Positions 1 to 23,961 of a stretch of 64,000 nucleotides of DNA are shown here, piece by piece (position 1 is the stretch's first letter; every line of letters starts with the position of its first letter). Made by a program: the position numbers and the translations under genes. The notes beneath the pieces are model-generated. The model did no database searches. It was given only the letters and a program-made list of their open reading frames with translations, and was not told the origin of the DNA. Origin of the DNA: Limisphaerales bacterium (GTDB lineage: Bacteria > Patescibacteriota > Microgenomatia > UBA1400 > PJMF01); NCBI GenBank assembly GCA_044350895.1, contig JBILGT010000004.1:3829-67828 (forward strand), given 5' to 3'.

Positions 1-927
1 GTTTCAATCAAAACACAGCAACGGATTGTTGAACCATTTATTGTGAATATTCCTGGATTTGGTCCAACAATTGGAAAAGAGAGAACTGAGCAAATTCAAC
101 GTGATATAGGCACTGGCTTTGTGGTTGATGAATCAGGACTTATCGTGACCAACAAACATGTGGTCAGTGAAACACAAGCGGAATACAAAGTAATCGATAC
201 CAAAAATACTGAATACGCAGTTACCAATATTTATCGCGATCCCACCAGTGATTTAGCAATCTTACGCGTTGAGGGCGCCAAACTCCCCAAACTTGCTCTA
301 GGCGAGTCCAACTCAATTAGAGTAGGAGAGCCAGTGATTGCGATTGGTACAGCACTGGGTGAATTCAGACATACAGTTACCACAGGCGTGATCTCTGGCC
401 TGGGTAGAGGAATTACTGCAAGTGGAGGATTTACGGGCAGTGAAGAACTTGAAAATGTAATTCAGACAGATGCAGCAATCAATCCAGGAAATTCTGGTGG
501 ACCACTGCTCAATAATAAAGGTCAAGTGATTGGCGTAAACGTCGCAGTTTCTGCCAATGCCCAAAATATTGGTTTTGCACTTCCTATCAACTTAGTAAAA
601 GATTCTCTCACCAATTTCAATCAAACAGGGCAGTTTGATCGTCCATTCTTTGGAGTCCGCTATCAACTTCTTACGCTCCAAGAATCAGTGGGAGCCAAAG
701 TTCCACAAGGTGCGCTGGTACTTGAGGTGATTCAGAATTCATCTGCTGCCGAAGCAGGTATGCTGCCCAATGATATTTTAATTGAAATAGATGGTCAGTC
801 GTTGACAGAAAAATCCACACTTGCTGAACTTATAAATAAAAAGAAAATTGGTGATCAGCTAACTATCAAATACTGGCGCGAAGGCAGCGAAAAAACTGCA
901 ACAGTTACATTGCGCAAAGCTCCCTAA
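1..927 (+). CDS. HtrA/DegP-family trypsin-like serine protease with C-terminal PDZ domain (5' partial; the frame is open to the window edge)
   Basis: The frame of ORF 43..927 stays open back to nt 1. It carries the catalytic triad context TNKHVV ... DLAIL ... GNSGGPL and a PDZ-like EIDGQS segment. Confidence 0.8.
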   Translation, partial: VSIKTQQRIVEPFIVNIPGFGPTIGKERTEQIQRDIGTGFVVDESGLIVTNKHVVSETQAEYKVIDTKNTEYAVTNIYRDPTSDLAILRVEGAKLPKLALGESNSIRVGEPVIAIGTALGEFRHTVTTGVISGLGRGITASGGFTGSEELENVIQTDAAINPGNSGGPLLNNKGQVIGVNVAVSANAQNIGFALPINLVKDSLTNFNQTGQFDRPFFGVRYQLLTLQESVGAKVPQGALVLEVIQNSSAAEAGMLPNDILIEIDGQSLTEKSTLAELINKKKIGDQLTIKYWREGSEKTATVTLRKAP

Positions 928-3014: not shown

Positions 3015-3097
3015 TCTTGAAGATTTGACAGCAAGTGAACTTGGCTTTTAATAAAATCAGTTTATAATCCGCCTATAATTAGTTGAAAAAGCAAGGT

Positions 3098-4279
3098 ATG
3101 AGTAAGCTTACAGAGCTCAATAAAGTGTCAAGATCTGAATGGGATTTTATCAAGGATGGAGCAAAATCTGATCTCCAAAGAGCTGAAATGCGCCTGAGTA
3201 ACCATGAGTCTTGGGAGGATTTTAAACTTACTTCAACAATACTTCTGCGCCAGTTGTGGCAAAACAAACTCTATCGCTCTGAGAGAAGAGAGTTCAGAGA
3301 AACATTTGGTGATTCTCGCAAAGCTTCAAACGAACTTTTCTCTTTATTTTTCATTAATTTGCTTGCTGAATATTGGGACAAAATCAATAAGCCAAAATTG
3401 CCCTCGCTTATCCTTGATGGTCCAGTGCGGTCTGGTACTAGTACCCAAGCAGAACTTTGGCAAAAGTATTTTGACTTTGAATCTCTGCAAATGGGAATGA
3501 TGTTTCGAGCAATTGCTTTTATTTCTCAAATGAATGGATTAACTCCTCCAGAGGTAATCAAACTTACCAAAGGAGGGTATTTTCACTTTTGTATTCGATT
3601 CCAGGATGATCAGCCAACTTTTGAGGTATCGTGTACCCATCCTGATCATCAATTTCTGCAAAATATAGAAAAATCTCAGTTTGGTATTTTGCGCACTTCA
3701 GAAATTGACAAATATGCTTCTTCACTCAATTCTGATCCAGAACGTGCTGTAGAAAAAATGGTAGTAAATGCAGTCAATATGTATCTTGAAAAAAATAATG
3801 GTGTAGTAATGGAAGGCCGCAATTTAGCATCGATAATACCATCTTTTTCGCTAAGAGCATTCTATCTTGCGGTGAGCGATGAAGAAGCAAAACGACGGGA
3901 AGTAGAGAGTGTTAAACGACAGAGTAAAAAGAGTGGAAACCCACCACCTTCAGATGAAGAGTTGGCTCGATTGGCGCAAATGGTTGTGGAAAGAAATGCA
4001 AGTGACACGCGCAATGGAATTTTGCTATCACCCGAGGATGCTTTTAGGTCAGAAAAATATACGGCTATATATAATACAGGCGAAGGTGGCCCATATTATT
4101 TATTTAACTCAATGGTAAATGTGCATGACATTATTAGGCTTGATGACCTTTTTATTCCCAATATTTATGCATATATGCGGCTGGTACTTTTCACAGGATA
4201 TTCTGAACTACCAAGTAATTCACTGATGCACTTTTCGCGCAGAAGAAATCGAGAGCCAGGTAATAGGGCGTTGGCATAA
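3098..4279 (+). CDS. cytidylate-kinase-fold protein with a degenerate P-loop and large N- and C-terminal extensions (possible pseudokinase)
   Basis: LILDGPVRSGTSTQ parallels Cmk IAIDGPAGSGKST with K replaced by T. LQMGMMFRAIAF parallels Cmk LDTGAMYRAVAL. ERNASDTRNG...LSPEDA parallels the Cmk LID segment. Start could be TTG 3083 or ATG 3098. Confidence 0.45.
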   Translation: MSKLTELNKVSRSEWDFIKDGAKSDLQRAEMRLSNHESWEDFKLTSTILLRQLWQNKLYRSERREFRETFGDSRKASNELFSLFFINLLAEYWDKINKPKLPSLILDGPVRSGTSTQAELWQKYFDFESLQMGMMFRAIAFISQMNGLTPPEVIKLTKGGYFHFCIRFQDDQPTFEVSCTHPDHQFLQNIEKSQFGILRTSEIDKYASSLNSDPERAVEKMVVNAVNMYLEKNNGVVMEGRNLASIIPSFSLRAFYLAVSDEEAKRREVESVKRQSKKSGNPPPSDEELARLAQMVVERNASDTRNGILLSPEDAFRSEKYTAIYNTGEGGPYYLFNSMVNVHDIIRLDDLFIPNIYAYMRLVLFTGYSELPSNSLMHFSRRRNREPGNRALA

Positions 4280-13026: not shown

Positions 13027-14337
13027 ATGGCAAAACCGAAGCTGCCTCCTCACGATACCGAGGCAGAAAAGTCTTTGCTGGGTGCACTGCTTGTTGATCC
13101 TGATGCGTTAGTCAAGGTCGCTGACTTAATTAAGCCAGAAAGTTTTTACAATCCTGCACACAACATTATTTATGCTGCAATAGAACATCTCTATGAAAAG
13201 CGGCAGCCTGTTGATGCAATTACCCTGACCAATCAGCTCAAGAAGATGAAAAAGCTTGATGAAGCTGGCGGAACAGCAGCCCTTGCTCATCTTTCTAATA
13301 TTCTCTCAACTGCTGCCAATGTGGTGGAGTACGCCAAAGTTGTGGCGTCATTATATGTCAAACGTCGCATTATCTCGATCTCAGCAGAGCTGACCGAGCA
13401 GGCGTTCGATGATTCCAAAGAATCAAATGACGTGCTTGATTCAGCCGAACAAAAAGTCTTTGCAATTTCTCAAAGTAATGGCAGTCGAGCATTTACCAGT
13501 ATCAAGGATACGTTGGTAGAGAGTTTCGAGCGCCTTGATGAACTACAGCGTAACGGTGGGGAGCTCAGAGGCGTCCCAACAGGCTTTGCTGATCTAGATC
13601 AGCTCTTGGCAGGTATGCAGAAGTCAAACCTGCTTATTCTGGCAGCTCGGCCAGGTATGGGAAAAACTGCATTTGCCCTTAATATTGCGCATCACGTTGT
13701 GGTTACGGCAAAGCAGCGAGTGGGCGTATTCTCATTGGAAATGAGTAGAGAAGAGTTGGTGGACCGGTTGCTGGTTTCTCAGGCAGATATTGATGCATGG
13801 CGTTTGAAAACTGGACGGCTAGATCAACAGGACTTCATGAAGCTTTCTGATGCCATGGGTGTTTTGGCTGATGCGCAGCTTTTTATTGACGATTCTCCTG
13901 GTCTTACTATTTTTGAAATGAGAACTCGTGCTCGACGTCTGATGACAGAACATCACATCGATTTCTTGGTTGTTGACTATCTCCAGCTCGCCCAAGGTCG
14001 TACCAAAGATAATCGTGTCCAAGAAGTGGGTGAAATTTCTCAGGGATTAAAGAATATTGCTCGTGAACTAAAAATTCCAGTTTTGGCACTGGCTCAGTTG
14101 TCGCGTGCTGTGGAAAGTCGCGGCGAGCGTGTGCCACAACTTTCAGACCTTCGTGAATCTGGATCTATTGAGCAAGATGCTGACGTCGTGATGTTCTTGT
14201 ACCGTAAAGATGATGATGTGCGCGAATCAGTTAACTTAAAAATTGCCAAACACCGTAATGGTGCGCTGGGTGATATTGACCTGTATTTCAAGGGCGACCG
14301 TATTAAATTCTATGGTATGGAAACAAGAAGAGGCTAG
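13027..14337 (+). CDS. dnaB: replicative DNA helicase
   Basis: HDTEAEKSLLGALL N-terminal domain, Walker A GMGKTAFALNIA and RecA-like C-terminal motifs. Confidence 0.9.
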   Translation: MAKPKLPPHDTEAEKSLLGALLVDPDALVKVADLIKPESFYNPAHNIIYAAIEHLYEKRQPVDAITLTNQLKKMKKLDEAGGTAALAHLSNILSTAANVVEYAKVVASLYVKRRIISISAELTEQAFDDSKESNDVLDSAEQKVFAISQSNGSRAFTSIKDTLVESFERLDELQRNGGELRGVPTGFADLDQLLAGMQKSNLLILAARPGMGKTAFALNIAHHVVVTAKQRVGVFSLEMSREELVDRLLVSQADIDAWRLKTGRLDQQDFMKLSDAMGVLADAQLFIDDSPGLTIFEMRTRARRLMTEHHIDFLVVDYLQLAQGRTKDNRVQEVGEISQGLKNIARELKIPVLALAQLSRAVESRGERVPQLSDLRESGSIEQDADVVMFLYRKDDDVRESVNLKIAKHRNGALGDIDLYFKGDRIKFYGMETRRG

Positions 14338-14343
14338 GTTGAA

Positions 14344-14586
14344 TTAGCTTCGAGGTGCTGCTGAGAAGCCAAACAGCAGATAGACAAGTGTCCCTGAGAG
14401 AACGATAAATAACAAAATAAATCCCAGATTTTGCTTAATCTTTGAATGGCCTTGTTCTGGACGAGGTGTGTCTGTACTGACAATTATGCCGCCGGCAATG
14501 ACAACCCAAAAGAGTCCACGCAGAATAACTGACCAGATGCTTGTGACATCAAGCAGCGATTGCACGATTGTGCGAATAGTTTCCAT
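14344..14586 (-). CDS. small hypothetical membrane protein (80 aa, two transmembrane segments)
   Basis: ORF with two hydrophobic helices, convergent with dnaB. Confidence 0.35.
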   Translation of the reverse strand: METIRTIVQSLLDVTSIWSVILRGLFWVVIAGGIIVSTDTPRPEQGHSKIKQNLGFILLFIVLSGTLVYLLFGFSAAPRS

Positions 14587-14691
14587 AACACAATCAATAT
14601 GAATGAAATTGAGAAAAAAAGCAAATTTATCGATTGGCTATAATTTTTTGAGAATAAAATTTACAGTAATTTTTGTTACAACTGAGCGTTA

Positions 14692-15888
14692 TTAGGGAGC
14701 TAAAAAAGCCCATGAAAAGCGAGCATACTCTTTGAGTATCCTTCGTTGAATTGGTAATAGAGTGGCTGCTGCTTCAGGGTTAATACCTTTAATTTGCTCA
14801 TCTTTAACTGTCATCTCAGTAGGTTTAACAAGTGGAAAGTGTCTTGACCAACTCCTTAATAAACGGGGAACAATAGCCCATTTGCGAATACCTTTTTCCC
14901 AGTCGAATTCAATACCAATTGAGCCATTTGCCCCATGATACATATTTTTCCAAGTTTCAGGGTGTTCAACAATTATATTTTCCTTATATAAATTTAGTAA
15001 TCTTAGCGATGTAGTACTTAAAGTATATGTATCAGTAAGAATTTTTAATCTTTCTTCACGCTCAGCAACTGGTAAGAGCTTAATTTGGGATTGTTCCAAC
15101 CGCAATGCCTCTAAATCCACAAAGCAATTTGCAAATTCATCCCAGATTTCAAGCCATACTTGGGTGATTTCTTTCATTTGTTGTAATTCATCGTCTGAAA
15201 TAGGAAGAGTAACTGGTTTTTCGCAGATTGTAATAACATTCTTTTGTGTTTGTGTAAAATCTATATCTGGAAAAGCTGATCTCATGCTATCTACAAAAAT
15301 AAAAACATTTGGATCTCTATCTAAATACTCATATCCCTCAAAGTCTCCCAGCCTTCCATTTGGTGTAAATGCGTCTGGAAACTCGGCTAGACTGTGACCA
15401 TATGCTTGAATATGCAGATGAAAAGGTAAAAAGCTCGTGTTATATGAAGTTTTTGGATTGATATCATGTGGTCCAAAGTGTTGAAACATGTAACTTTTAT
15501 CTAAATTATGTCCGTCGGCTCTACATGTGTTCACAACTGATCCATGTAGGATCTGAGCAAAATTAAAAAATGTTTTAAGGTCTGATAATTCTAGTTCACT
15601 AATTTTATTGATAACAGGTGAATCTGATGTCATAGGTATTAACGACATCATTGCCTCATAAGGGCGTGAGGGGGCATATTTTGGAAAAATTACGACCTTA
15701 TGGGTTCCCTGATTAATGTCACCTGCAACAAACGCTACACCTTCATCAATAAGTGTCTGTAAACCCGCATCCAATAACTCATCATATACTGGTTTGTCCA
15801 TATTAGGACGTTTGCCATTTGGAAAACGAAACTTATCTACAATTGAGTAAGAGTAAAAAACTGGTATTTCACGACTCATGTTAGGCAT
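14692..15888 (-). CDS. hypothetical protein with HIT-superfamily GalT-branch-like HxHxQ motif (candidate nucleotidyltransferase/phosphorylase)
   Basis: FLPFHLHIQAYGH follows the H-phi-H-phi-Q pattern of GalT/Ap4A-phosphorylase-type HIT folds. No other recognisable family motif. Confidence 0.35.
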   Translation of the reverse strand: MPNMSREIPVFYSYSIVDKFRFPNGKRPNMDKPVYDELLDAGLQTLIDEGVAFVAGDINQGTHKVVIFPKYAPSRPYEAMMSLIPMTSDSPVINKISELELSDLKTFFNFAQILHGSVVNTCRADGHNLDKSYMFQHFGPHDINPKTSYNTSFLPFHLHIQAYGHSLAEFPDAFTPNGRLGDFEGYEYLDRDPNVFIFVDSMRSAFPDIDFTQTQKNVITICEKPVTLPISDDELQQMKEITQVWLEIWDEFANCFVDLEALRLEQSQIKLLPVAEREERLKILTDTYTLSTTSLRLLNLYKENIIVEHPETWKNMYHGANGSIGIEFDWEKGIRKWAIVPRLLRSWSRHFPLVKPTEMTVKDEQIKGINPEAAATLLPIQRRILKEYARFSWAFLAP

Positions 15889-15906
15889 AACTTAAGTCAA
15901 TTACTT

Positions 15907-16632
15907 TTACGATTCAGTATCTCTTGATAACAAATTTCTTTGTTCAATAAAGAAATCACGCAGCAACCCAATTTCCCGTATGAGGTTTTTTTTCGAATCA
16001 CTACTGTGAAATACAGTATTGTGTTCACTTCCTTGGAAGAGAGAACGAAGTGTTCCGTAGTACCGTGAGGTTTTCAAAACCTTTAAACGCCACTCGGCAC
16101 CAACGTTTTTGCGCCATGTTTCAATTGCATCATTCCCTTCAAGAAATAGCACTGTGGTTGGCCAATGAAGCATAGTATATGCCCATTCATGCCAACGATT
16201 AGGATGTTCGACTTCATATCTAGAAGAGTTTATGGCAGGTTTTCTGAGCTGACGTCTTTGTGCTCCGCCTTTATAAAAATCTTGTAAAAGTGGATAGTCG
16301 AAGATGAGTGAAAAAACTGCAAATGGAAATAATCCTAGGTTGGGTGAAAAAGTGTAATTAATCAATGCTTCTGTTAATTCTGGATCTGATAAACCGGGCT
16401 CAGTATTAAGTAATAAATGTCCATTGTAGCTAATAGCCTCATCCATGCGTGGTTTGATAAGAGCAATTGTTACTTCTCCTTGTTGTAAAGCCGTACTGGA
16501 TGCGACGGAGTCGAGTAGTGAAACAACGGTATTAACTTTGCCAATAAGTGGAAGGGCATCATGATTACTAGTAAGAAAAGTATTCCCTTTATCTGAGTAA
16601 AGTGGTTGGCGTTCAATGAGTGCCTTAGTCAT
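15907..16632 (-). CDS. hypothetical protein (241 aa), co-oriented with and 18 nt upstream of the HxHxQ protein
   Basis: Long ORF with coding-like composition and no recognisable motifs. Confidence 0.5.
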   Translation of the reverse strand: MTKALIERQPLYSDKGNTFLTSNHDALPLIGKVNTVVSLLDSVASSTALQQGEVTIALIKPRMDEAISYNGHLLLNTEPGLSDPELTEALINYTFSPNLGLFPFAVFSLIFDYPLLQDFYKGGAQRRQLRKPAINSSRYEVEHPNRWHEWAYTMLHWPTTVLFLEGNDAIETWRKNVGAEWRLKVLKTSRYYGTLRSLFQGSEHNTVFHSSDSKKNLIREIGLLRDFFIEQRNLLSRDTES

Positions 16633-16760
16633 ACAAAAATGTATTACTACCTATAGTATATCATATAATACATATTTATTATGTATTTAAAATGATTTAA
16701 TCCCAATATTTATAACGAAATTCTAGGAGCAAATGAGGCTTATGATATGGGAAAAAGTGT

Positions 16761-16766
16761 TATAAT
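16761..16766 (+). promoter_or_regulatory. -10 box (TATAAT) positioned for tRNA-Leu transcription
   Basis: TATAAT lies 16 nt upstream of the tRNA 5' end in an AT-rich region. Confidence 0.35.
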
Positions 16767-16781
16767 ACACCTCTGTATCTT

Positions 16782-16867
16782 GCCACTGTGGCGGAACTGG
16801 TAGACGCGTGGGTCTCAAAAACCCATGAGCCTTAAAACTCGTGTCGGTTCGATTCCGACCAGTGGCA
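16782..16867 (+). tRNA. tRNA-Leu (anticodon CAA), type II with long variable arm
   Basis: Acceptor GCCACTG/CAGTGGC, anticodon loop CTCAAAA, long variable arm TGAGCCTTAAAACTCGT, T-loop TTCGATT. CCA is not encoded. Confidence 0.85.
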
Positions 16868-16887
16868 CATTATGGTAGTATGAGTAA

Positions 16888-17817
16888 GTGAGCGAAAACG
16901 ATTCATTATTTACCCTTCCATTTACCGTTATAGAACAGCTTGGGACTCGGTCAGAGTTATCCCCTGAAAGATATAAGCCTTCATACATTTCAAGAATTTT
17001 AAATAGAGCAATTGCTCCAGAATTTCATAATCCACAAGCAAGATTTTTGAGGGGTCATTTTTTTATTGAGCCACCAGAACGCTTCTCAACATTAAATTCT
17101 GGCAGCAGAATAACTTTTAATTCAGGTGATAAGCAGGTGGTGCTGGAAGGAATGTCATACCCAGGATCAACTCATGGTAAGGAACTATTTGATCAACTTG
17201 ATGAAAAGGTTTCTAACATAGATGTAAAAAGCTTGAATGAAGAGCAGTTATCAATTGTCGCTGCATTTTTAACTATTTGTAGCGTTACTATTCATCCATT
17301 TCGCGATTCAAATGGCAGAGGAGCAGTAGGATTAGCTGATGTATTTCTCAGATCTAACACAGGTACAACCTTCGATTATGAGAAATTGGTTGAGCATAAT
17401 CAAACTTTAGTTAATTTATTAGTGATTGGTTCATTAAGTTTATTGCCACCCTCCCACAATCCTGAAATATGTGCCATGCAGATGGCCGTTGAGGACAAAT
17501 ATTTGGAAATAAAAATTCCTAACATGCAGAATGCTTCAGTTGAAGAGGTATCAGCATTTCTGAAAGATTTTTCAGATACTATCACCGCATTCATACGAAC
17601 TTTTGATGTGGCTCAAGCCACTGAAAAACCTGCCAGAATATTTGATCCCAACTATAGTATTCATAAGTTGGCGGCACTTTTCAGAGAAGTACATAAACCG
17701 ATCGATAGTCAGGAACGTGTTAAACAGATCCAGGCCAATATAAAAGCTATTTTTCAAGCGGAGCAGGCGTTGCAAAGCAGAACCGCTGAGACACCACCTA
17801 CCGAAGCAGATAAATAG
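16888..17817 (+). CDS. Fic/Doc-family protein (candidate AMPylase/toxin-like)
   Basis: TIHPFRDSNGRGAVGL matches the Fic core HPFx(D/E)GNGR with G replaced by S. A GTG start at 16888 lies 20 nt after the tRNA; the start is uncertain. Confidence 0.5.
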   Translation: MSENDSLFTLPFTVIEQLGTRSELSPERYKPSYISRILNRAIAPEFHNPQARFLRGHFFIEPPERFSTLNSGSRITFNSGDKQVVLEGMSYPGSTHGKELFDQLDEKVSNIDVKSLNEEQLSIVAAFLTICSVTIHPFRDSNGRGAVGLADVFLRSNTGTTFDYEKLVEHNQTLVNLLVIGSLSLLPPSHNPEICAMQMAVEDKYLEIKIPNMQNASVEEVSAFLKDFSDTITAFIRTFDVAQATEKPARIFDPNYSIHKLAALFREVHKPIDSQERVKQIQANIKAIFQAEQALQSRTAETPPTEADK

Positions 17818-18247
17818 CAATCACCAGGATAATTTGAGGAGCAAGTCCGAGCCACATATTGGGAATTGAGTGGTGGAATTTGCCGTGCAGATCATTGAAT
17901 GGCTTAAGGAAAAATGGTTCCCATTTTAAGAAATTGCGTGGTGCTTCCATAAAATCTGGAACAAGCCCAACAAATGCGCCGAAGGCAATATGATAGAACG
18001 CTGGTGTTCCCACTGCATCCTTCCAAAAATAGTAGACTAGCCCAATTGTAATTGCTAAATCAACAAGTTCCAACAAAATTGCCGTACTACGTTTTCGTTT
18101 TCCTTTGGAAAGGCCAGTGCCCACATCCCAGTGAGGCATCCAGTCTTGGAGGTAGTGAAATGCCAACGTGATCGGGACGTAGATAAACGGATTTGGAATC
18201 TTGCTAGCAATAAACGCACCGGTGAGCGAGTGGGGTATAGAGAGCAT
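17798..18247 (-). CDS. hypothetical integral membrane protein (149 aa)
   Basis: Several hydrophobic helices and His/Asp-rich loops. Confidence 0.45.
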   Translation of the reverse strand: MLSIPHSLTGAFIASKIPNPFIYVPITLAFHYLQDWMPHWDVGTGLSKGKRKRSTAILLELVDLAITIGLVYYFWKDAVGTPAFYHIAFGAFVGLVPDFMEAPRNFLKWEPFFLKPFNDLHGKFHHSIPNMWLGLAPQIILVIAIYLLR

Positions 18248-18276
18248 ACGAGAATATAGTATACAATAACTGTTGT

Positions 18277-19092
18277 ATGTTTCCTGTACTTCTTAGCTTC
18301 GGACCATTCGAACTGCGCACACTGAGTGTTTTTCTTATTGTGGCTTTTTTAACCAGTTCTTTTATTTTCTGGCGAAAGGGAAGAGAAGAGCATTACAATG
18401 AGGGTGAATTTTTTGATGGATTTATTCTGGCCACACTGGTTGGATTCGTGGCTGGCCGAGTGGGATTCATTGCACTCAACTATGAGCGATTTGGCCTAGC
18501 AGTACTGCACTGGTTTGATATTTTTGCCTACCCAGGCATAAATGGCGTGATTGGGCTACTGTGTGCCACAGTATATTTATATCGATATGCTCAGCACAAC
18601 AAATGGGATGTTTTTGAAGTTTTAGACTTCTGGGTGCTTTCACTCACCAGTGGACTGACGCTGGGATACATTGGGCTATTTTTTGATGGAACAGCAGTGG
18701 GAAGAGCCACAACGTTACCAATTGGACTTGTTTTCCCTGGTTTAATCGAGCCACACCACCCTGCACAACTCTATGCTGCATTCTTTTTTGGAATTATCAG
18801 TATGTATCTGAGTCGAGTAGAGTATCGCTATCGCACGTTTGAGTGGTATCGATCTGGCAAAAAAACAGCGCAAACGGGTTTCCTTGTTAGTATTTTCTTG
18901 ATAGCGACATCGCTCTTTTTCTTTATTGTCAGTTGGGTAAAAACACCAGTTTTCTCAATTGCTGGAATAGATCTTGATAGAATCCTAGCACTACTGGCAT
19001 TTGTAGGTGGCGTAATATTACTCTATACCAGATCTGGTAGAACATTTCTTAAACGCAAACCAGCATATTCACCAGTAAATTCAGAATCATGA
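18277..19092 (+). CDS. lgt: prolipoprotein diacylglyceryl transferase-like
   Basis: N-terminal FGPFELRTLSVFLIVAFL ... polytopic profile consistent with Lgt. It is immediately upstream of lspA with an ATGA overlap. Confidence 0.55.
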   Translation: MFPVLLSFGPFELRTLSVFLIVAFLTSSFIFWRKGREEHYNEGEFFDGFILATLVGFVAGRVGFIALNYERFGLAVLHWFDIFAYPGINGVIGLLCATVYLYRYAQHNKWDVFEVLDFWVLSLTSGLTLGYIGLFFDGTAVGRATTLPIGLVFPGLIEPHHPAQLYAAFFFGIISMYLSRVEYRYRTFEWYRSGKKTAQTGFLVSIFLIATSLFFFIVSWVKTPVFSIAGIDLDRILALLAFVGGVILLYTRSGRTFLKRKPAYSPVNSES

Positions 19093-20993: not shown

Positions 20994-21092
20994 GATAATG
21001 AGTCGCGAAGGCAAATAGAAGGCTTTCGCTCCCAAGTAACAAACGTTGTCTACCTAAAAAGTAGACAAATAGAAACCAAGTTGAGCAGAAAG
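20994..21092 (+). promoter_or_regulatory. conserved leader element copy 1: -10 box, then TTCGCTCCCAAGTAACAA core, 6-bp hairpin and GAAACCAAGNTGAGCNGAAAG box
   Basis: GATAAT at 20994-20999. Core at 21025-21042. Hairpin GTCTAC/GTAGAC at 21048-21066. 3' box at 21072-21092. The same architecture recurs at 22357-22444. Confidence 0.5.
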
Positions 21093-21095
21093 TCT

Positions 21096-22310
21096 ATGCT
21101 AGCACTACCTGAACGCCAACAACCATTCGTAGATTCCCAACAAGCTGAGCTGGATGCGATTATTCGCAACGAGCAACAACTAAAAGCTGCTCAAGCAGCT
21201 GACCGAAAACGTTCTTACATAGAGCCAGGAATACCTGATGTAGAACGTCAAGTTGATTTGGTGCGCATGAGAGGCTTTGAATTTCAAACGAATCCAGATG
21301 GATCAGAAGTAATTGACATACTATGGCCATCACCGGAAGAGGAGGAAACAGACTATCGTGGTTTTGTTCAAGTAGCGCATCTGTTGTGGCGCAAAAGAAA
21401 TCAATCTGACAAACAGTTTTTTGCTAGCCCAAAATATCGGCACTCAGCCGATCAGGCATTAAGTACTTGGCAACAAGTTGAAGAACTACTAATGGGTGAT
21501 AGCATTTCTCAGACTGGAGTACCATTTTTCCGTAAGTTACATGACCCTTCAATTCCTGTCACTAAAGCTCACACAGGGCGAACTCCAGCTGCTCACATTC
21601 TTGATGTTTTAGAATGTGTGAAATCAGATCATCTGCAATTAGATTTTCGTCGTTTTCTTGTTCGTGTTAATGCTGTTATGCATGATTGGGGCAAGCTGTT
21701 TATTTCTGGCAAGGATATTTATCAGGATCACGCTCATATCAGTTACTATATCGCTCGAAAATTTTTAGCACGTTACTTCATTGAATATTTTGGTGCAACA
21801 CCTGAAATTGCATTTGCTCAAGCCGCAACATTTACATTACCGATTAAGTATCATCATTTACTTGAACAAGTTGAAGAAAATATTCTAACTGAAAAAGAAG
21901 CAGCTCAATTACTGCCCTCAGAAGCTGTGCTTGAGGAGATTGCGACGCTGACGATAGCAGATCGTTTAAGTGTGCGTGGTGGAATGGGCAGATATGCAAT
22001 GTTTGCATTTCTTGTCTTTTTTGGTTATCCACACCTTTTGAAACAGATTGTCACAACAGAAGAAGTTTTGGTGCTGGCGCAGCGATTAAGTGGCCAATGT
22101 TTAGGTGGTGTTGCTGATGTTTTACATTCATCTGATGAGTATCCAAATCTAATTGATAGCATTGCGCTGCCTGTCATCAATGGCATTATGAATTTTCAAG
22201 CTACCAGTGATGGGCTAGTTACGATGCTTAGTCAAAGTGCCTTAGGTACTCACACGGAGCAAGTATCAAACGCTCAGAAAAGCGGACTACTGTATAAAGG
22301 TATAAAGTGA
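21096..22310 (+). CDS. HD-domain-like metal-dependent phosphohydrolase (hypothetical)
   Basis: AAHILDVLECV ... NAVMHDWGKLF matches the H ... HD ... GK spacing of HD domains. The ORF-track TTG start (21081) lies inside the conserved leader box, so ATG 21096 is preferred. Confidence 0.45.
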   Translation: MLALPERQQPFVDSQQAELDAIIRNEQQLKAAQAADRKRSYIEPGIPDVERQVDLVRMRGFEFQTNPDGSEVIDILWPSPEEEETDYRGFVQVAHLLWRKRNQSDKQFFASPKYRHSADQALSTWQQVEELLMGDSISQTGVPFFRKLHDPSIPVTKAHTGRTPAAHILDVLECVKSDHLQLDFRRFLVRVNAVMHDWGKLFISGKDIYQDHAHISYYIARKFLARYFIEYFGATPEIAFAQAATFTLPIKYHHLLEQVEENILTEKEAAQLLPSEAVLEEIATLTIADRLSVRGGMGRYAMFAFLVFFGYPHLLKQIVTTEEVLVLAQRLSGQCLGGVADVLHSSDEYPNLIDSIALPVINGIMNFQATSDGLVTMLSQSALGTHTEQVSNAQKSGLLYKGIK

Positions 22311-22444: not shown

Positions 22445-22470
22445 AATACTGGGTGTTTTTTTGTAACCAA

Positions 22471-23961
22471 ATGGCAAAAATAGAACGTACTGAACGGCTA
22501 GCTCCTCCTACTAATACTGAAATTTTTCAGCAGCTACATAATCTTTTGATCTACTGGCTTTCGCCATCTGAAGTGAGCCAATTACTGGCTCAGATTGCTT
22601 TTAAAGAACTTAGTTCACCAGCATTTTTGCAAGGTATTTCAAGAATAGTAATCGCCTCAAATCCTGAAGGTAAAAAGACTCGAGGGCTGATTCAAGCACT
22701 CCATGGTTACTTTACCCGTGAGGGAGGGACTCCACTTGAAATTGAAGCCCGTGATCCAGAAAAATTATCGGGAAAACTTGAAGTGAGTGTTTCAAGCGCT
22801 GGTCTAGCTGCAAACTGGAAAGTTGATCAAGCACGCCGTGCGATTGCTGGTAATTTTGGTGGTGATACTGTTCTGGTCGGTACTGACACGATTATTTTTG
22901 CTGGAAATGATTCAACTTCAATTGAACGGTTTCCTAACCCAGAACGTGATAGACACTTCGCCCAGATACATGGTTTACCTTGGACTTGGGGAAGTATTAA
23001 AGGACAAGTTGAGAGAGTTGTGAATAAAATTGCGAGCAGAGAAGCAGAGCCTCCAAAGGAAGCCGTGGTCATTGCTCACTGCGTGACCTCATTTGCACGA
23101 AAAGCACTTGCTGAAGATGCTGGTGTACTTTTCAACCTTGGCTATTCTATTCGCACGATCTACTGGGGAATTAAAGAAGAACAGATCTGGAGAGATATCG
23201 AAAAGTATCGGGCAGAAAATACTATTGCCCACATGAACAAGCGACCACCACTGGTAAAACTTGCAGAAGATTATCGCGATCACATCACAGAAGTTGATAT
23301 TACGCACCTTGTTTGTGGTTTGCTGGCTGATACTGTGGGAAACCCCATAACATTTGAAAATAAAGATGGACATGAGGTATTGATGGATCCTGGAAAAGAG
23401 GATCTGAGATTTGTACGTCCTGGTCTGATGTTACAAAATGATGGCAGTATCCAGCTAGTTGATACGTTGGGTGGGGTACAAACACTTACACTTGATAGTT
23501 GTACAACAGGACAGATACTAGGTGTGATTGATGACAGTGGCAAACGCATTTTTTCGGAACCAACTGAACGAGGAATTCGTTTTCTAATCCCAAAACGAGG
23601 ACTTTTACTCACTAAAGTGCGCATGTCTTTGGAAAATGGTACAGTGCGACAGCTTACCTCTCTTGAATCAAACATTCTTAGAACACTAATTGAACAGACG
23701 CAAGCATATGAAAAAGTCCTAGATATCGTAACAAGCTTTATGATCGATGGCATCCCGCCTCAGGTAGTACTTGCAGCATTTCTCGCGAGTGTTGCTGTGC
23801 CACTGCAAGGCAATTCACAGGAAGTAACTGTGATGGGGTACCCTGAACTACTTAAGCCGACTGAGCCTGATGGTTCACCACGCAGAGAGACGCCAACTGA
23901 GAAGGCACAAAGGATTAGAGACGCGTATGTGCGAATGCATGTGGGTAAATATAGTTTTTAA
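22471..23961 (+). CDS. hypothetical protein (about 497 aa)
   Basis: Long ORF with no recognisable motif. Start is ATG 22471 or GTG 22453. Confidence 0.5.
   Translation: MAKIERTERLAPPTNTEIFQQLHNLLIYWLSPSEVSQLLAQIAFKELSSPAFLQGISRIVIASNPEGKKTRGLIQALHGYFTREGGTPLEIEARDPEKLSGKLEVSVSSAGLAANWKVDQARRAIAGNFGGDTVLVGTDTIIFAGNDSTSIERFPNPERDRHFAQIHGLPWTWGSIKGQVERVVNKIASREAEPPKEAVVIAHCVTSFARKALAEDAGVLFNLGYSIRTIYWGIKEEQIWRDIEKYRAENTIAHMNKRPPLVKLAEDYRDHITEVDITHLVCGLLADTVGNPITFENKDGHEVLMDPGKEDLRFVRPGLMLQNDGSIQLVDTLGGVQTLTLDSCTTGQILGVIDDSGKRIFSEPTERGIRFLIPKRGLLLTKVRMSLENGTVRQLTSLESNILRTLIEQTQAYEKVLDIVTSFMIDGIPPQVVLAAFLASVAVPLQGNSQEVTVMGYPELLKPTEPDGSPRRETPTEKAQRIRDAYVRMHVGKYSF

What the first reader, a model, noticed from the sequence alone, without database searches (positions are those of the whole stretch)
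14692..17817. tRNA-Leu-associated trio: unknown protein plus HIT/GalT-like HxHxQ protein operon, and a divergent Fic-motif gene
Two co-oriented unknown genes, 18 nt apart, end at a tRNA-Leu whose other side carries a Fic-family gene (HPFRDSNGR). The larger unknown has an H-phi-H-phi-Q motif (FHLHIQAYG) characteristic of GalT or Ap4A-phosphorylase-type nucleotidyl-transfer enzymes. Fic proteins are classic toxin or effector AMPylases. The set is flanked by core genes (dnaB, lgt), so it looks like a small accessory insertion at a tRNA. It is a candidate nucleotide-modifying, toxin or defence-like module.
Basis: partly seen in the sequence, partly recalled or inferred. Interest (0 to 1): 0.55.

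Follow-up and report, generated by a model that had tools for sequence, protein, structure and literature searches.

The report
Accessory nucleotide-enzyme pair plus Fic gene
Beside a leucine tRNA gene, a candidate-phyla (Patescibacteria) bacterium has gained a conserved pair of nucleotide-handling enzymes (a divergent nucleoside-diphosphate kinase and a new histidine-triad/GalT-like protein) and, separately, an atypical Fic gene; this is a moderately interesting uncharacterised enzyme pair, not a demonstrated toxin or defence module.

Summary
All the sequence features are real. The 241-aa "unknown" is a divergent nucleoside-diphosphate kinase (B) that keeps its catalytic His. The 398-aa protein (A) belongs to a rare unannotated family: 36 cluster representatives among 1.84 billion proteins. 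Its HxH pair is invariant, but the Q of "HxHxQ" is not. A confident AF2 model (pLDDT 90) matches class I GalT, DUF4931 and HIT structures best, though weakly.

The three closest relatives have DnaB–tm80–tRNA-Leu(CAA)–hyp149–Lgt and lack A, B and Fic at this site. A+B therefore lie in a slot 5' of the tRNA. Fic lies in a separate slot 3' of it, which holds unrelated cargo or nothing in the relatives. No integrase or att repeats were found.

The B-like + A-like pair recurs, tightly coupled, in two other lineages without Fic or the tRNA. Other A homologs are fused to, or encoded beside, APH-type or P-loop kinases and sugar-modifying genes.

Best reading: there were two independent acquisitions. 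A/B is a phosphotransfer plus nucleotidyl-transfer pair, probably acting on nucleotide-sugars or related nucleotide conjugates. Fic is a separate protein with a non-canonical motif (HPFRDSNGRGAV) and no inhibitory helix. A single three-gene toxin or defence module is not supported.

The parts
14692..15888 (-). Gene A: 398-aa member of a rare, unannotated HIT/GalT-like family; second gene of the B-A operon
   Evidence: ORF. No Pfam, NCBIfam, PADLOC or PDB sequence hit. 36 family representatives in 1.84e9 proteins. AF2 model pLDDT 90.2, pTM 0.91. Foldseek top hits are GalT 6k5z (E 1.1e-3, prob 0.93), DUF4931 4qvu and HIT 2oik; 6k5z confirmed as GalT.
15406..15420 (-). HLHIQ motif of A (H157, H159, Q161); H159 is the predicted nucleotidyl-accepting histidine
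   Evidence: H157 and H159 are invariant in 29 family members. Position 161 varies (Q/H/Y/T/L/S/F). The motif lies on predicted strand E157-163. Coordinates. The nucleophile role is inferred from HIT-superfamily chemistry (bioRxiv 10.64898/2026.09.13.751320).
15907..16632 (-). Gene B: 241-aa divergent nucleoside-diphosphate-kinase-like protein; first gene of the operon
   Evidence: PF00334 at 33.8 bits vs cut-off 27, covering only residues 147-223. PDB NDK hits with E 0.009-0.7. 32-37% identical to the NDK-like genes upstream of A homologs in L006 and L097. Named NDK by a source.
15994..16020 (-). NTVFHSSDS: NDK active-site segment of B with the phospho-accepting His209
   Evidence: Aligns to N-x-x-H-(G/A)-S-D-S of solved NDKs. 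Invariant E203 H204 N205 F208 H209 S211 S213 among the three B-like proteins. Coordinates.
16782..16868 (+). tRNA-Leu(CAA): conserved core gene separating the two variable slots
   Evidence: ARAGORN. Rfam tRNA 58.5 bits. Present just after dnaB-tm80 in L015, L016 and L017, and next to dnaB in L018, L019, L026 and L031.
16888..17817 (+). Fic-domain gene (309 aa); stand-alone cargo of the slot 3' of the tRNA
   Evidence: PF02661 at 25.3 bits vs cut-off 24. PADLOC PDC-S04 E 1.9e-8. Homology to P0038 begins at residue 4, which supports the GTG start. Absent at this position in the relatives.
17293..17328 (+). Fic motif HPFRDSNGRGAV (non-canonical: Ser for Gly at position 6, Val for the final Arg)
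   Evidence: Regex and coordinates. The same pattern, HAFPDANGRVAV, occurs in the homolog P0038.
14344..14586 (-). tm80: conserved small membrane-protein gene; left boundary of the A/B insert
   Evidence: 47-54% identical and directly followed (68-94 bp) by tRNA-Leu in L015-L017, against 2195 bp in the window.
17798..18247 (-). hyp149: conserved core gene; right boundary of the Fic slot (overlaps the Fic 3' end by 20 nt)
   Evidence: 62-65% identical in L015-L017 and always next to lgt. Overlap.
14708..14724 (-). Terminator-like hairpin with T-run at the end of gene A
   Evidence: Consensus scan. It was the only terminator-like site in 14300-18300; not evidence of function on its own.
16678..16706 (-). 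Promoter-like site (TTGGGA-17-CATAAT) upstream of B
   Evidence: Consensus scan. The number of such sites in the region does not exceed the shuffle expectation, so this is only a candidate.

Best explanation
The region holds two independent accessory acquisitions flanking a conserved tRNA-Leu(CAA) in a Patescibacteria (Microgenomates-type) genome.

(1) A two-gene operon, B then A, lies between tm80 and the tRNA. B is a divergent NDK-like phosphotransferase with a phospho-His209 chemistry. It is expected to interconvert NDP and NTP. A is a two-lobed HIT/GalT-like nucleotidyltransferase or phosphorylase. It is expected to form a covalent NMP-His159 intermediate and pass the NMP between a phosphorylated acceptor (phosphate, or a sugar- or alcohol-phosphate) and a nucleotide donor. 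B would supply or remove the NDP/NTP that A uses or makes. The most likely setting is formation or phosphorolysis of a nucleotide-activated sugar or similar nucleotide conjugate, which is a salvage or envelope-precursor function and not a toxin.

(2) A stand-alone Fic-domain gene lies in the variable slot 3' of the tRNA. Its motif is non-canonical and it has no inhibitory helix. Its function is unrelated to A/B, and it may be a target-modifying enzyme with non-AMPylating or attenuated activity.

Shown: gene identities at family or fold level, the conserved catalytic residues, absence from the syntenic site in relatives, and recurrence of the B-A pair. Inferred: the chemistry, the substrates and the functional coupling.
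For: Insertion:
- Relatives L015, L016 and L017 share ten flanking genes in order but lack A, B and Fic. The tm80-to-tRNA gap is 68-94 bp in them against 2195 bp here. The slot 3' of the tRNA is empty, or holds a hydrolase or an unknown gene.
- GC content is lower: A 0.362 (z -2.6, the lowest of 47 genes), B 0.391, Fic 0.383.

B-A as a unit:
- A B-like NDK lies immediately upstream of, and co-oriented with, an A homolog in L006/L007 (1-nt gap; A 32% identical, B 37%). The same holds in L097 (11-nt overlap; A 24% identical, NDK 39.4 bits).
- A fourth neighbour, in L098, is a sub-threshold NDK.

B chemistry: the Lys (IKP), Arg (TLR), Asn and His (FHSSDS) are conserved.

A chemistry:
- The HxH pair is invariant and lies on a beta-strand.
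- The best structural matches are GalT, DUF4931 and HIT.

Kinase and sugar theme among A homologs:
- P0016 is fused to an APH kinase domain (33.8 bits).
- L006 has a P-loop NMP-kinase-like gene in the same operon.
- L008 has an adjacent AAA_33 kinase.
- In L101, A lies in a co-oriented cluster with GT2, an APH/choline-kinase-like gene (E 1.4e-3), an EEP phosphoesterase and a YdjC deacetylase.
- L096 has PIG-L and L009 has GT4 glycosyltransferases nearby.

Known precedents for this logic are NahK (APH family) plus GalT2 in the GNB/LNB pathway, and the NDP-producing GalT-branch phosphorylases.

Fic is separate: no A-homolog locus contains a Fic gene.
Against: - The fold assignment for A is weak: Foldseek E about 1e-3 and TM 0.25-0.3. 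No sequence profile links A to HIT or GalT.
- No partner kinase, glycosyltransferase or transporter is adjacent in the window itself.
- The neighbours of A homologs are heterogeneous, and some show no kinase or sugar link (L005, L012, L095).
- B could not be modelled (pLDDT 34). It has a 50-aa N-terminal extension and an internal insertion, so it may not be a plain NDP kinase.
- Only about 12 contexts were sampled.
- Absence was shown at the syntenic site only, not in the whole genomes of the relatives.
Confidence: 0.5

Rival explanations
1. Nucleotide salvage cascade. A is a HIT-type hydrolase or phosphoramidase (Hint/Fhit/DcpS-like) that releases NMP or NDP from nucleotide conjugates or dinucleoside polyphosphates taken up by this auxotrophic CPR cell. 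Kinases, including B, then rebuild NTPs.
For: L006 encodes the full NDK-like + A + P-loop NMP-kinase-like set in one tight operon. This mirrors the experimentally ordered HINT1 -> GUK1 -> NDPK cascade (PMC11349198). The only Pfam family hit by more than one A member is the HIT-clan DcpS_C (2 of 29 members, E 0.031). The third motif position is His in some members (HLHIH, HAHVH).
Against: The best structural matches are two-lobed GalT transferases, not small Hint/Fhit hydrolases. The APH-kinase fusions and the glycan-gene contexts fit activation of a phosphorylated small molecule better than hydrolysis. The DcpS_C hits are far below threshold.
Confidence: 0.2
2. One reading: the three genes form one tRNA-linked toxin, effector or anti-phage module. 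In it, Fic is the toxin and A/B modify or deplete nucleotides.
For: All three genes are accessory, lower in GC and adjacent to a tRNA. Fic matches the PADLOC candidate PDC-S04 (E 1.9e-8) and, at motif level, SoFic. Fic lacks an inhibitory helix, as an unrestrained effector might.
Against: A/B and Fic lie in different slots on opposite sides of the tRNA and on opposite strands. A/B recur elsewhere without Fic, and none of the sampled A-homolog loci carries a Fic gene. A and B have no PADLOC hit. There are no phage relatives, no integrase and no att repeats. PDC-S04 is an unverified candidate that showed no defence when tested in one host. The Fic motif lacks the second Arg needed by canonical AMPylators. 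The TLIDEG match in A is not conserved in its family.
Confidence: 0.08
3. Nothing special. B is simply this organism's housekeeping ndk, A is an unrelated hypothetical neighbour, and the relatives lost or relocated these genes.
For: One source annotates B as NDK. No other NDK-like ORF was seen in the 64-kb window. CPR genomes are fluid.
Against: B-like proteins form a distinct subfamily about 240-260 aa long, with a shared N-terminal extension and insertion. B scores far below every NCBIfam ndk equivalog cut-off (27.8 vs 155 bits). The dnaB-tRNA-Leu adjacency without A/B is shared by at least seven related genomes, which favours gain over repeated loss.
Confidence: 0.1

Closest known systems
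GalT branch of the HIT superfamily (class I Gal-1-P uridylyltransferase, ADP-glucose phosphorylase At5g18200, Ap4A phosphorylase Apa2, DUF4931)
   Same: A has an HxHxQ motif in the first half of a roughly 350-400-aa chain built from two repeated alpha+beta lobes. H157/H159 compare in position with E. coli H164/H166. The best structural matches are GalT 6k5z/6k9z and DUF4931 4qvu. The link to an anomeric-kinase-type (APH) partner parallels NahK + GalT2.
   Different: No sequence-profile similarity was found. Q161 is not conserved in the family. There is no conserved CxxC zinc site. The second lobe contains a long helical insert (about residues 259-304). The conserved QH (136-137), W245, C255, G322 and P341 are family-specific. 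Pairing with a dedicated NDK-like gene has, to my knowledge, not been described for GalT-branch enzymes.
Nucleoside diphosphate kinase (Ndk, PF00334)
   Same: B keeps the catalytic His in N-x-x-H-S-S-D-S, plus the Lys of IKP, the Arg of G-T-L-R, and the Asn and Glu. It passes the Pfam gathering score.
   Different: B is 241 aa rather than about 140-150. It has a roughly 50-aa N-terminal extension and an Arg-rich insertion of about 18-30 aa after the FY motif. Only its C-terminal half aligns to the profile. It falls far below the NCBIfam ndk equivalog cut-offs. It is genetically coupled to A homologs.
HINT1 -> NMP kinase -> NDPK nucleotide activation cascade
   Same: The same three enzyme classes (HIT, NMP-kinase-like, NDK) are encoded together in the L006 operon, and two of them in the window.
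   Different: The known cascade consists of unlinked eukaryotic housekeeping enzymes acting on phosphoramidates. Here the HIT-like protein is a large GalT-like form, and its substrates are unknown.
Fic/Doc family (PF02661), including SoFic and the PADLOC candidate PDC-S04
   Same: The core motif H-x-F-x-D-x-N-G-R and the surrounding helices match the C-terminal half of the Fic profile.
   Different: The motif is HPFRDSNGRGAV against the canonical HxFx(D/E)GNGRxxR: Ser replaces Gly and Val replaces the last Arg. It is not Doc either, because Doc has K in N-K-R, and the DOC_P1 score is 19.3 vs 38.65. There is no (S/T)xxxE(G/N) inhibitory helix and no antitoxin-like partner. Only one homolog was found by word-based search.
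tRNA-associated genomic islands
   Same: The genes are accessory, flank a tRNA gene, are absent from close relatives and have lower GC.
   Different: There is no integrase, no direct repeat of the tRNA 3' end and no mobility genes. Cargo lies on both sides of the tRNA, and the larger insert is on the 5' side, which integrase-mediated islands do not normally use.

Membership tests
HIT superfamily / GalT branch (protein A) | Histidine-triad motif H-phi-H-phi-(H/Q)-phi-phi, with the second His as nucleophile | tested here: met
   HLHIQAY at residues 157-163. H157 and H159 are invariant in 29 homologs, but the fifth position (Q161) varies (Q/H/Y/T/L/S/F).
HIT superfamily / GalT branch (protein A) | HIT alpha+beta fold (two HIT-like lobes in the GalT branch) | tested here: inconclusive
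HIT superfamily / GalT branch (protein A) | Match to a curated sequence model (Pfam HIT, GalP_UDP_transf, DUF4931/4921, DcpS_C; NCBIfam) | tested here: not met
   A gives no Pfam or NCBIfam hit. Only 2 of 29 members touch DcpS_C, at E 0.031. The family profile against PDB gives only chance hits (E 0.31 or worse, none HIT-like). hhalign against E. coli GalT and HINT1 is not significant.
HIT superfamily / GalT branch (protein A) | Structural zinc site of class I GalT (Cys-x-x-Cys plus His) | tested here: not met
   The family alignment has no conserved Cys pair. The only near-invariant Cys is C255.
HIT superfamily / GalT branch (protein A) | Covalent nucleotidyl-histidine intermediate (ping-pong kinetics) | not testable with these tools
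   This needs biochemistry with labelled nucleotides and an H159A control.
Nucleoside diphosphate kinase (protein B) | Pfam PF00334 gathering score | tested here: met
   33.8 bits vs 27, but only residues 147-223 align (profile positions 57-128 of 135).
Nucleoside diphosphate kinase (protein B) | Catalytic His in N-x-x-H-(G/S)-S-D, plus the Lys, Arg and Asn of the active site | tested here: met
   NTVFHSSDS (His209), IKPR (Lys60) and GTLR (Arg196) are conserved in all three B-like proteins.
Nucleoside diphosphate kinase (protein B) | Orthology to bacterial Ndk (NCBIfam equivalog cut-offs; length about 140 aa) | tested here: not met
   The best equivalog, NF001908, scores 27.8 bits against a cut-off of 155. 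B is 241 aa, with an N-terminal extension and an internal insertion.
Fic family (309-aa protein) | Pfam PF02661 gathering score | tested here: met
   25.3 bits vs 24, which is marginal. Residues 99-154 align to profile positions 41-93 of 93.
Fic family (309-aa protein) | Canonical AMPylation motif HxFx(D/E)GNGRxxR | tested here: not met
   The motif is HPFRDSNGRGAV, with Ser at position 6 and Val at position 12. The homolog has HAFPDANGRVAV.
Fic family (309-aa protein) | Inhibitory helix (S/T)xxxE(G/N), in cis or in a partner antitoxin | tested here: not met
   None in Fic, tm80, hyp149 or B. There is a single TLIDEG at residue 45 of A, but the Glu is not conserved in the A family and about one such match is expected by chance in these proteins.
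Doc toxin (TIGR01550) | NCBIfam cut-off and the HxFx(D/N)(A/G)NKR motif | tested here: not met
   19.3 bits vs 38.65. The motif has G where Doc has K. The PDB Doc hit 3k33 has E 0.23.
Known anti-phage defence systems (PADLOC) | Match of the component proteins to a defence-system model | tested here: inconclusive
   A and B give no hit. Fic hits the unverified candidate PDC-S04 (E 1.9e-8, 32 bits) and SoFic only at the motif (E 0.0098). PDC-S04 showed no defence in one experimental test.
Integrase-mediated tRNA genomic island | Insert absent from close relatives at a tRNA locus | tested here: met
   A, B and Fic are absent at the syntenic site in L015-L017, and L016 has an empty site.
Integrase-mediated tRNA genomic island | Integrase gene and a direct repeat of the tRNA 3' end bounding the insert | tested here: not met
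   No integrase ORF lies between tm80 and hyp149. No repeat involving the tRNA was found.

The most novel reading that the evidence does not exclude
A and B define a previously undescribed two-enzyme system, seen so far mostly in CPR-type contexts. In it, a dedicated NDK-like phosphotransferase is coupled, perhaps physically, to a new family of the HIT superfamily. Together they would make or break an unusual nucleotide-activated metabolite, such as a nucleotide-sugar or alcohol-phosphate conjugate for the cell envelope, or a dinucleoside polyphosphate. This would give reduced-genome bacteria a portable route to a precursor they cannot otherwise synthesise.
Probability: 0.3. Interest if true: 0.6.

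Novelty: new variant of a known kind. Interest (0 to 1): 0.4.

Why it matters
Patescibacteria have tiny genomes and depend on salvage, so portable enzyme cassettes that handle nucleotides or nucleotide-sugars bear directly on how they obtain building blocks. Protein A represents a rare family with no annotation: 36 representatives among 1.84 billion clustered proteins, no Pfam or NCBIfam model and no solved relative. It has an invariant HxH catalytic pair and a recurrent genetic link to phosphotransferases (NDK-like, APH-like and P-loop). Defining its reaction would add a branch to the HIT superfamily and explain a dedicated, structurally elaborated NDK subfamily. The Fic gene adds a motif variant (HxFxD[SA]NGRxxV) that lies between the Fic and Doc motifs. 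Nothing here challenges current concepts, and the toxin or defence angle that made the finding attractive is weak.

Tried and rejected
- The word-indexed homolog search for A found only A itself. For B it found nothing, because B's cluster representative is an 88-aa fragment. For Fic it found one homolog.
- The single-sequence AF2 model of B failed (pLDDT 34), so no fold search was possible for B.
- The A-family profile against PDB sequences gave only chance hits.
- Metagenome scans with the B-subfamily alignment (A4) and a close-A alignment (A5), and a viral scan with A4, returned no relatives. The exclusivity of the B-A pairing therefore could not be tested at scale.
- tblastn of A and Fic against phage genomes gave no match.
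- Rfam found no riboswitch or other RNA apart from the tRNA.
- The repeat search found no att-like repeats.
- The promoter scan was not above the shuffle expectation.
- Alignment of the relatives' tm80-tRNA spacer to the two junctions was only marginally above shuffles, so the exact insertion point is not defined.
- I considered TLIDEG (A residue 45) as a trans-acting anti-Fic helix and rejected it, because the Glu is not conserved and A homologs occur without Fic.
- I considered the C-terminal domains of P0021, P0023 and P0035 as kinases on a DxxPxN...IDYE pattern, but Pfam gives no support. This is kept only as a hint.

Full report
**What is in the sequence**

- Gene A is at 14692-15888 on the minus strand and encodes 398 aa.
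- Gene B is 18 nt upstream, at 15907-16632, also minus strand, 241 aa.
- tRNA-Leu(CAA) is at 16782-16868 on the plus strand (ARAGORN; Rfam 58.5 bits).
- A Fic-motif gene of 309 aa is at 16888-17817 on the plus strand. It starts 19 nt after the tRNA and overlaps the next gene by 20 nt.
- HLHIQ is at residues 157-161 of A, and HPFRDSNGRGAV at residues 136-147 of the Fic protein.

One detail needs correcting. B/A is transcribed away from the tRNA: B starts 149 nt from it, so the operon begins beside the tRNA and does not end there.

**Identity of the proteins**

*Protein B* is not unknown.
- It passes the Pfam NDK gathering score (33.8 vs 27 bits).
- It aligns to solved NDKs over the active-site half (GTLR...NTVFHSSDS...REI).
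- One source annotates it as nucleoside diphosphate kinase.
- It is nevertheless far from orthologous Ndk. The best NCBIfam equivalog scores 27.8 bits against a cut-off of 155.
- It is 241 aa long, with an N-terminal extension of about 50 aa and an Arg-rich insertion after the FY motif.

*Protein A* has no Pfam, NCBIfam, PADLOC or PDB sequence match.
- An exhaustive HMMER search found only 36 cluster representatives among 1.84 billion proteins.
- In an alignment of 29 of them, H157, H159, G322 and P341 are invariant. Q136, H137, W245 and C255 are nearly so.
- The fifth motif position (Q161) is Q, H, Y, T, L, S or F. The family signature is therefore HxH, not HxHxQ.
- With that alignment AlphaFold2 gives a confident model (pLDDT 90.2, pTM 0.91), with the HxH on strand 157-163.
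- The best Foldseek hits in the PDB are 6k5z/6k9z (E 1.1e-3 to 6.5e-3, probability up to 0.93), the DUF4931 protein 4qvu and the HIT protein 2oik.
- I confirmed that 6k5z is a galactose-1-phosphate uridylyltransferase homologous to E. coli GalT (E 3.7e-32).
- I therefore regard the HIT/GalT-like fold as probable, not proven.

*The Fic protein* passes Pfam Fic marginally (25.3 vs 24 bits) and hits the PADLOC candidate PDC-S04 (E 1.9e-8).
- Its motif departs from the canonical HxFx(D/E)GNGRxxR: Ser replaces Gly and Val replaces the final Arg. The single detectable homolog shares the pattern (HAFPDANGRVAV).
- It is not Doc.
- It has no (S/T)xxxE(G/N) inhibitory helix.

**Genomic setting**

DnaB-based retrieval shows that the organism is a Patescibacteria bacterium. 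Its nearest genomes have DnaB at 76, 75 and 69% identity (L015, L016, L017; the last is a Candidatus Pacebacteria MAG).

All three relatives keep the order M24 peptidase - hyp246 - hyp183 - MBL hydrolase - DnaB - tm80 - tRNA-Leu(CAA) - hyp149 - Lgt, followed in L015 and L017 by RluD and PRT (L016's contig ends in lgt). None has A, B or Fic there, and none of the 80 DnaB loci has them within 10 kb.
- The tm80-to-tRNA spacer is 68-94 bp in the relatives, against 2195 bp in the window. A/B therefore sit in a slot 5' of the tRNA.
- The slot between the tRNA and hyp149 is 27 bp in L016. It holds an alpha/beta hydrolase in L015, an unknown 159-aa gene in L017 and Fic in the window.
- Adjacency of dnaB and tRNA-Leu extends to more distant relatives (L018, L019, L026, L031). 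Gain in the window's lineage is therefore more parsimonious than repeated loss.
- The three genes are lower in GC. A, at 0.362 (z -2.6), is the lowest of 47 genes; B is 0.391 and Fic 0.383.
- There is no integrase, no att-like repeat and no similarity to phages.

However, there are two insertions on opposite sides of the tRNA, and the mechanism of insertion is not recognisable.

**Is the trio a unit?**

The contexts of A homologs say no for Fic and yes for B.
- In L006/L007, an NDK-like gene 37% identical to B (E 2.7e-36) ends one base before an A homolog (32% identical). That A homolog is followed, again after one base, by a P-loop NMP-kinase-like gene (AAA_17/cytidylate-kinase-like).
- In L097, an NDK-like gene (39.4 bits) overlaps by 11 nt an A homolog that is only 24% identical to A, next to rpsB-tsf-frr.
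- The three B-like proteins are 32-37% identical to one another. They share the extension, the insertion and all catalytic residues.
- In L098, a divergently oriented 225-aa neighbour has NDK as its best hit, but below threshold (Pfam E 0.032; all five PDB hits are NDKs).
- No sampled A-homolog locus has a Fic gene.

Other A homologs are linked to different phosphotransferases and to sugar genes.
- P0016 is fused to an APH kinase domain.
- P0021, P0023 and P0035 carry a shared C-terminal domain of about 300 aa with a kinase-like DxxPxN...IDYE pattern but no Pfam support.
- P0005 is adjacent to an AAA_33/Zeta-type kinase.
- P0012 lies in a co-oriented cluster with a GT2 glycosyltransferase, an APH/choline-kinase-like gene (E 1.4e-3), an EEP phosphoesterase and a YdjC deacetylase, with more glycosyltransferases nearby.
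- PIG-L and GT4 genes neighbour P0006 and P0016.
- Some contexts show no such link (L005, L012, L095).

**Mechanism proposed**

B should use the classical NDK phospho-histidine (His209) to interconvert NDP and NTP. A should use His159 as a nucleotidyl acceptor, as in the HIT superfamily, where the second motif His attacks the alpha-phosphate (summarised in bioRxiv 10.64898/2026.09.13.751320).

GalT-branch enzymes either exchange NMP between sugar-1-phosphates or act as phosphorylases that release NDP (ADP-glucose phosphorylase, Ap4A phosphorylase). An NDP-consuming or NDP-producing step explains a dedicated NDK partner. The APH-kinase fusions and glycan-gene contexts parallel NahK (APH family) followed by GalT2 in the GNB/LNB pathway.

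My preferred reading, at about 0.5 overall, is a portable nucleotide/nucleotide-sugar module. Only the general phosphotransfer-plus-nucleotidyl-transfer logic is reasonably supported, and the substrate is inferred.

The main rival, at about 0.2, is a salvage cascade in which A hydrolyses nucleotide conjugates and kinases rebuild NTPs. This mirrors HINT1 -> GUK1 -> NDPK (PMC11349198) and fits the L006 operon.

A defence or toxin role for A/B has no positive evidence. For Fic it rests on a weak match to an unverified PADLOC candidate that showed no defence activity when tested in one host. Fic is best treated as separate stand-alone cargo with a non-canonical active site.

**Novelty and verdict**

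The tRNA, the NDK-like fold and the Fic domain are known kinds. New elements are:
- an unannotated HIT/GalT-like family with an invariant HxH;
- its recurrent coupling to a specialised NDK subfamily and to other kinases;
- a Fic motif variant.

This is a new variant of known kinds, of moderate interest (0.4). It is worth a biochemical look by people studying CPR metabolism or the HIT superfamily.

Noticed in passing
window 14593-14671: The 105-bp spacer between tm80 and the end of gene A aligns with the whole tm80-tRNA spacer of relative L015 (score 35 against a shuffle mean of 23.1, sd 4.0), including a shared AAAAAAGCAA...TATAAT element. The spacer upstream of the tRNA in the window does not align above chance. 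This suggests the ancestral tRNA-upstream region stayed with tm80 and A/B inserted close to the 5' end of the tRNA. The evidence is marginal.
   Followed up: partly
L015-L019, L026, L031 (about 11.3-12.0 kb in each locus): tRNA-Leu(CAA) lies within a few hundred bp of the 3' end of dnaB in at least seven related Patescibacteria genomes. This is a conserved dnaB-tRNA-Leu linkage, although the tRNA is on the opposite strand in L018 and L031.
   Followed up: partly
P0021, P0023, P0035 (residues ~390-715): Three long A-family members share a C-terminal domain of about 300 aa (32-41% identical to one another). It has a protein-kinase-like 'DxxPxNF...(F/Y)IDYEP' pattern but no Pfam hit, so it may be an unrecognised kinase-like family fused to the HIT-like domain.
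   Followed up: partly
L012 2911-3348, L013, L014: A rifampin ADP-ribosyltransferase (Arr-ms, E 7.5e-49) is encoded convergently with the A homolog P0008 in soil metagenome contigs, and its 3' end overlaps that gene by 8 nt.
   Followed up: no
window 15754-15771 (A residues 40-45..50): A contains TLIDEG (residues 45-50), which matches the anti-Fic inhibitory consensus (S/T)xxxE(G/N). The Glu is replaced by N, Q, K or D in homologs, and about one such match is expected by chance, so I judge it coincidental.
   Followed up: yes
L006 2573-3352: The P-loop kinase-like gene downstream of the A homolog P0004 has a degenerate Walker A (GLTGNRHAVGTST, with no Lys). It may bind nucleotides without being a conventional kinase.
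   Followed up: no
window 3083-4279: A 398-aa ORF has a cytidylate-kinase domain only in residues 111-310 (E 1e-13). It is unusually long for Cmk because of an N-terminal extension of about 110 aa.
   Followed up: no
window 21081-22310 and 22453-23961: Two large ORFs (409 and 502 aa) downstream of the conserved lgt-lspA-rluD-PRT block have no Pfam match. The 409-aa gene was not detected in the syntenic region of L015-L017 either.
   Followed up: no
protein B cluster (P0039/P0040): A technical point: B's 90%-identity cluster is represented by an 88-aa fragment. This explains why the word-indexed homolog search with full-length B returned nothing, not even B itself.
   Followed up: yes
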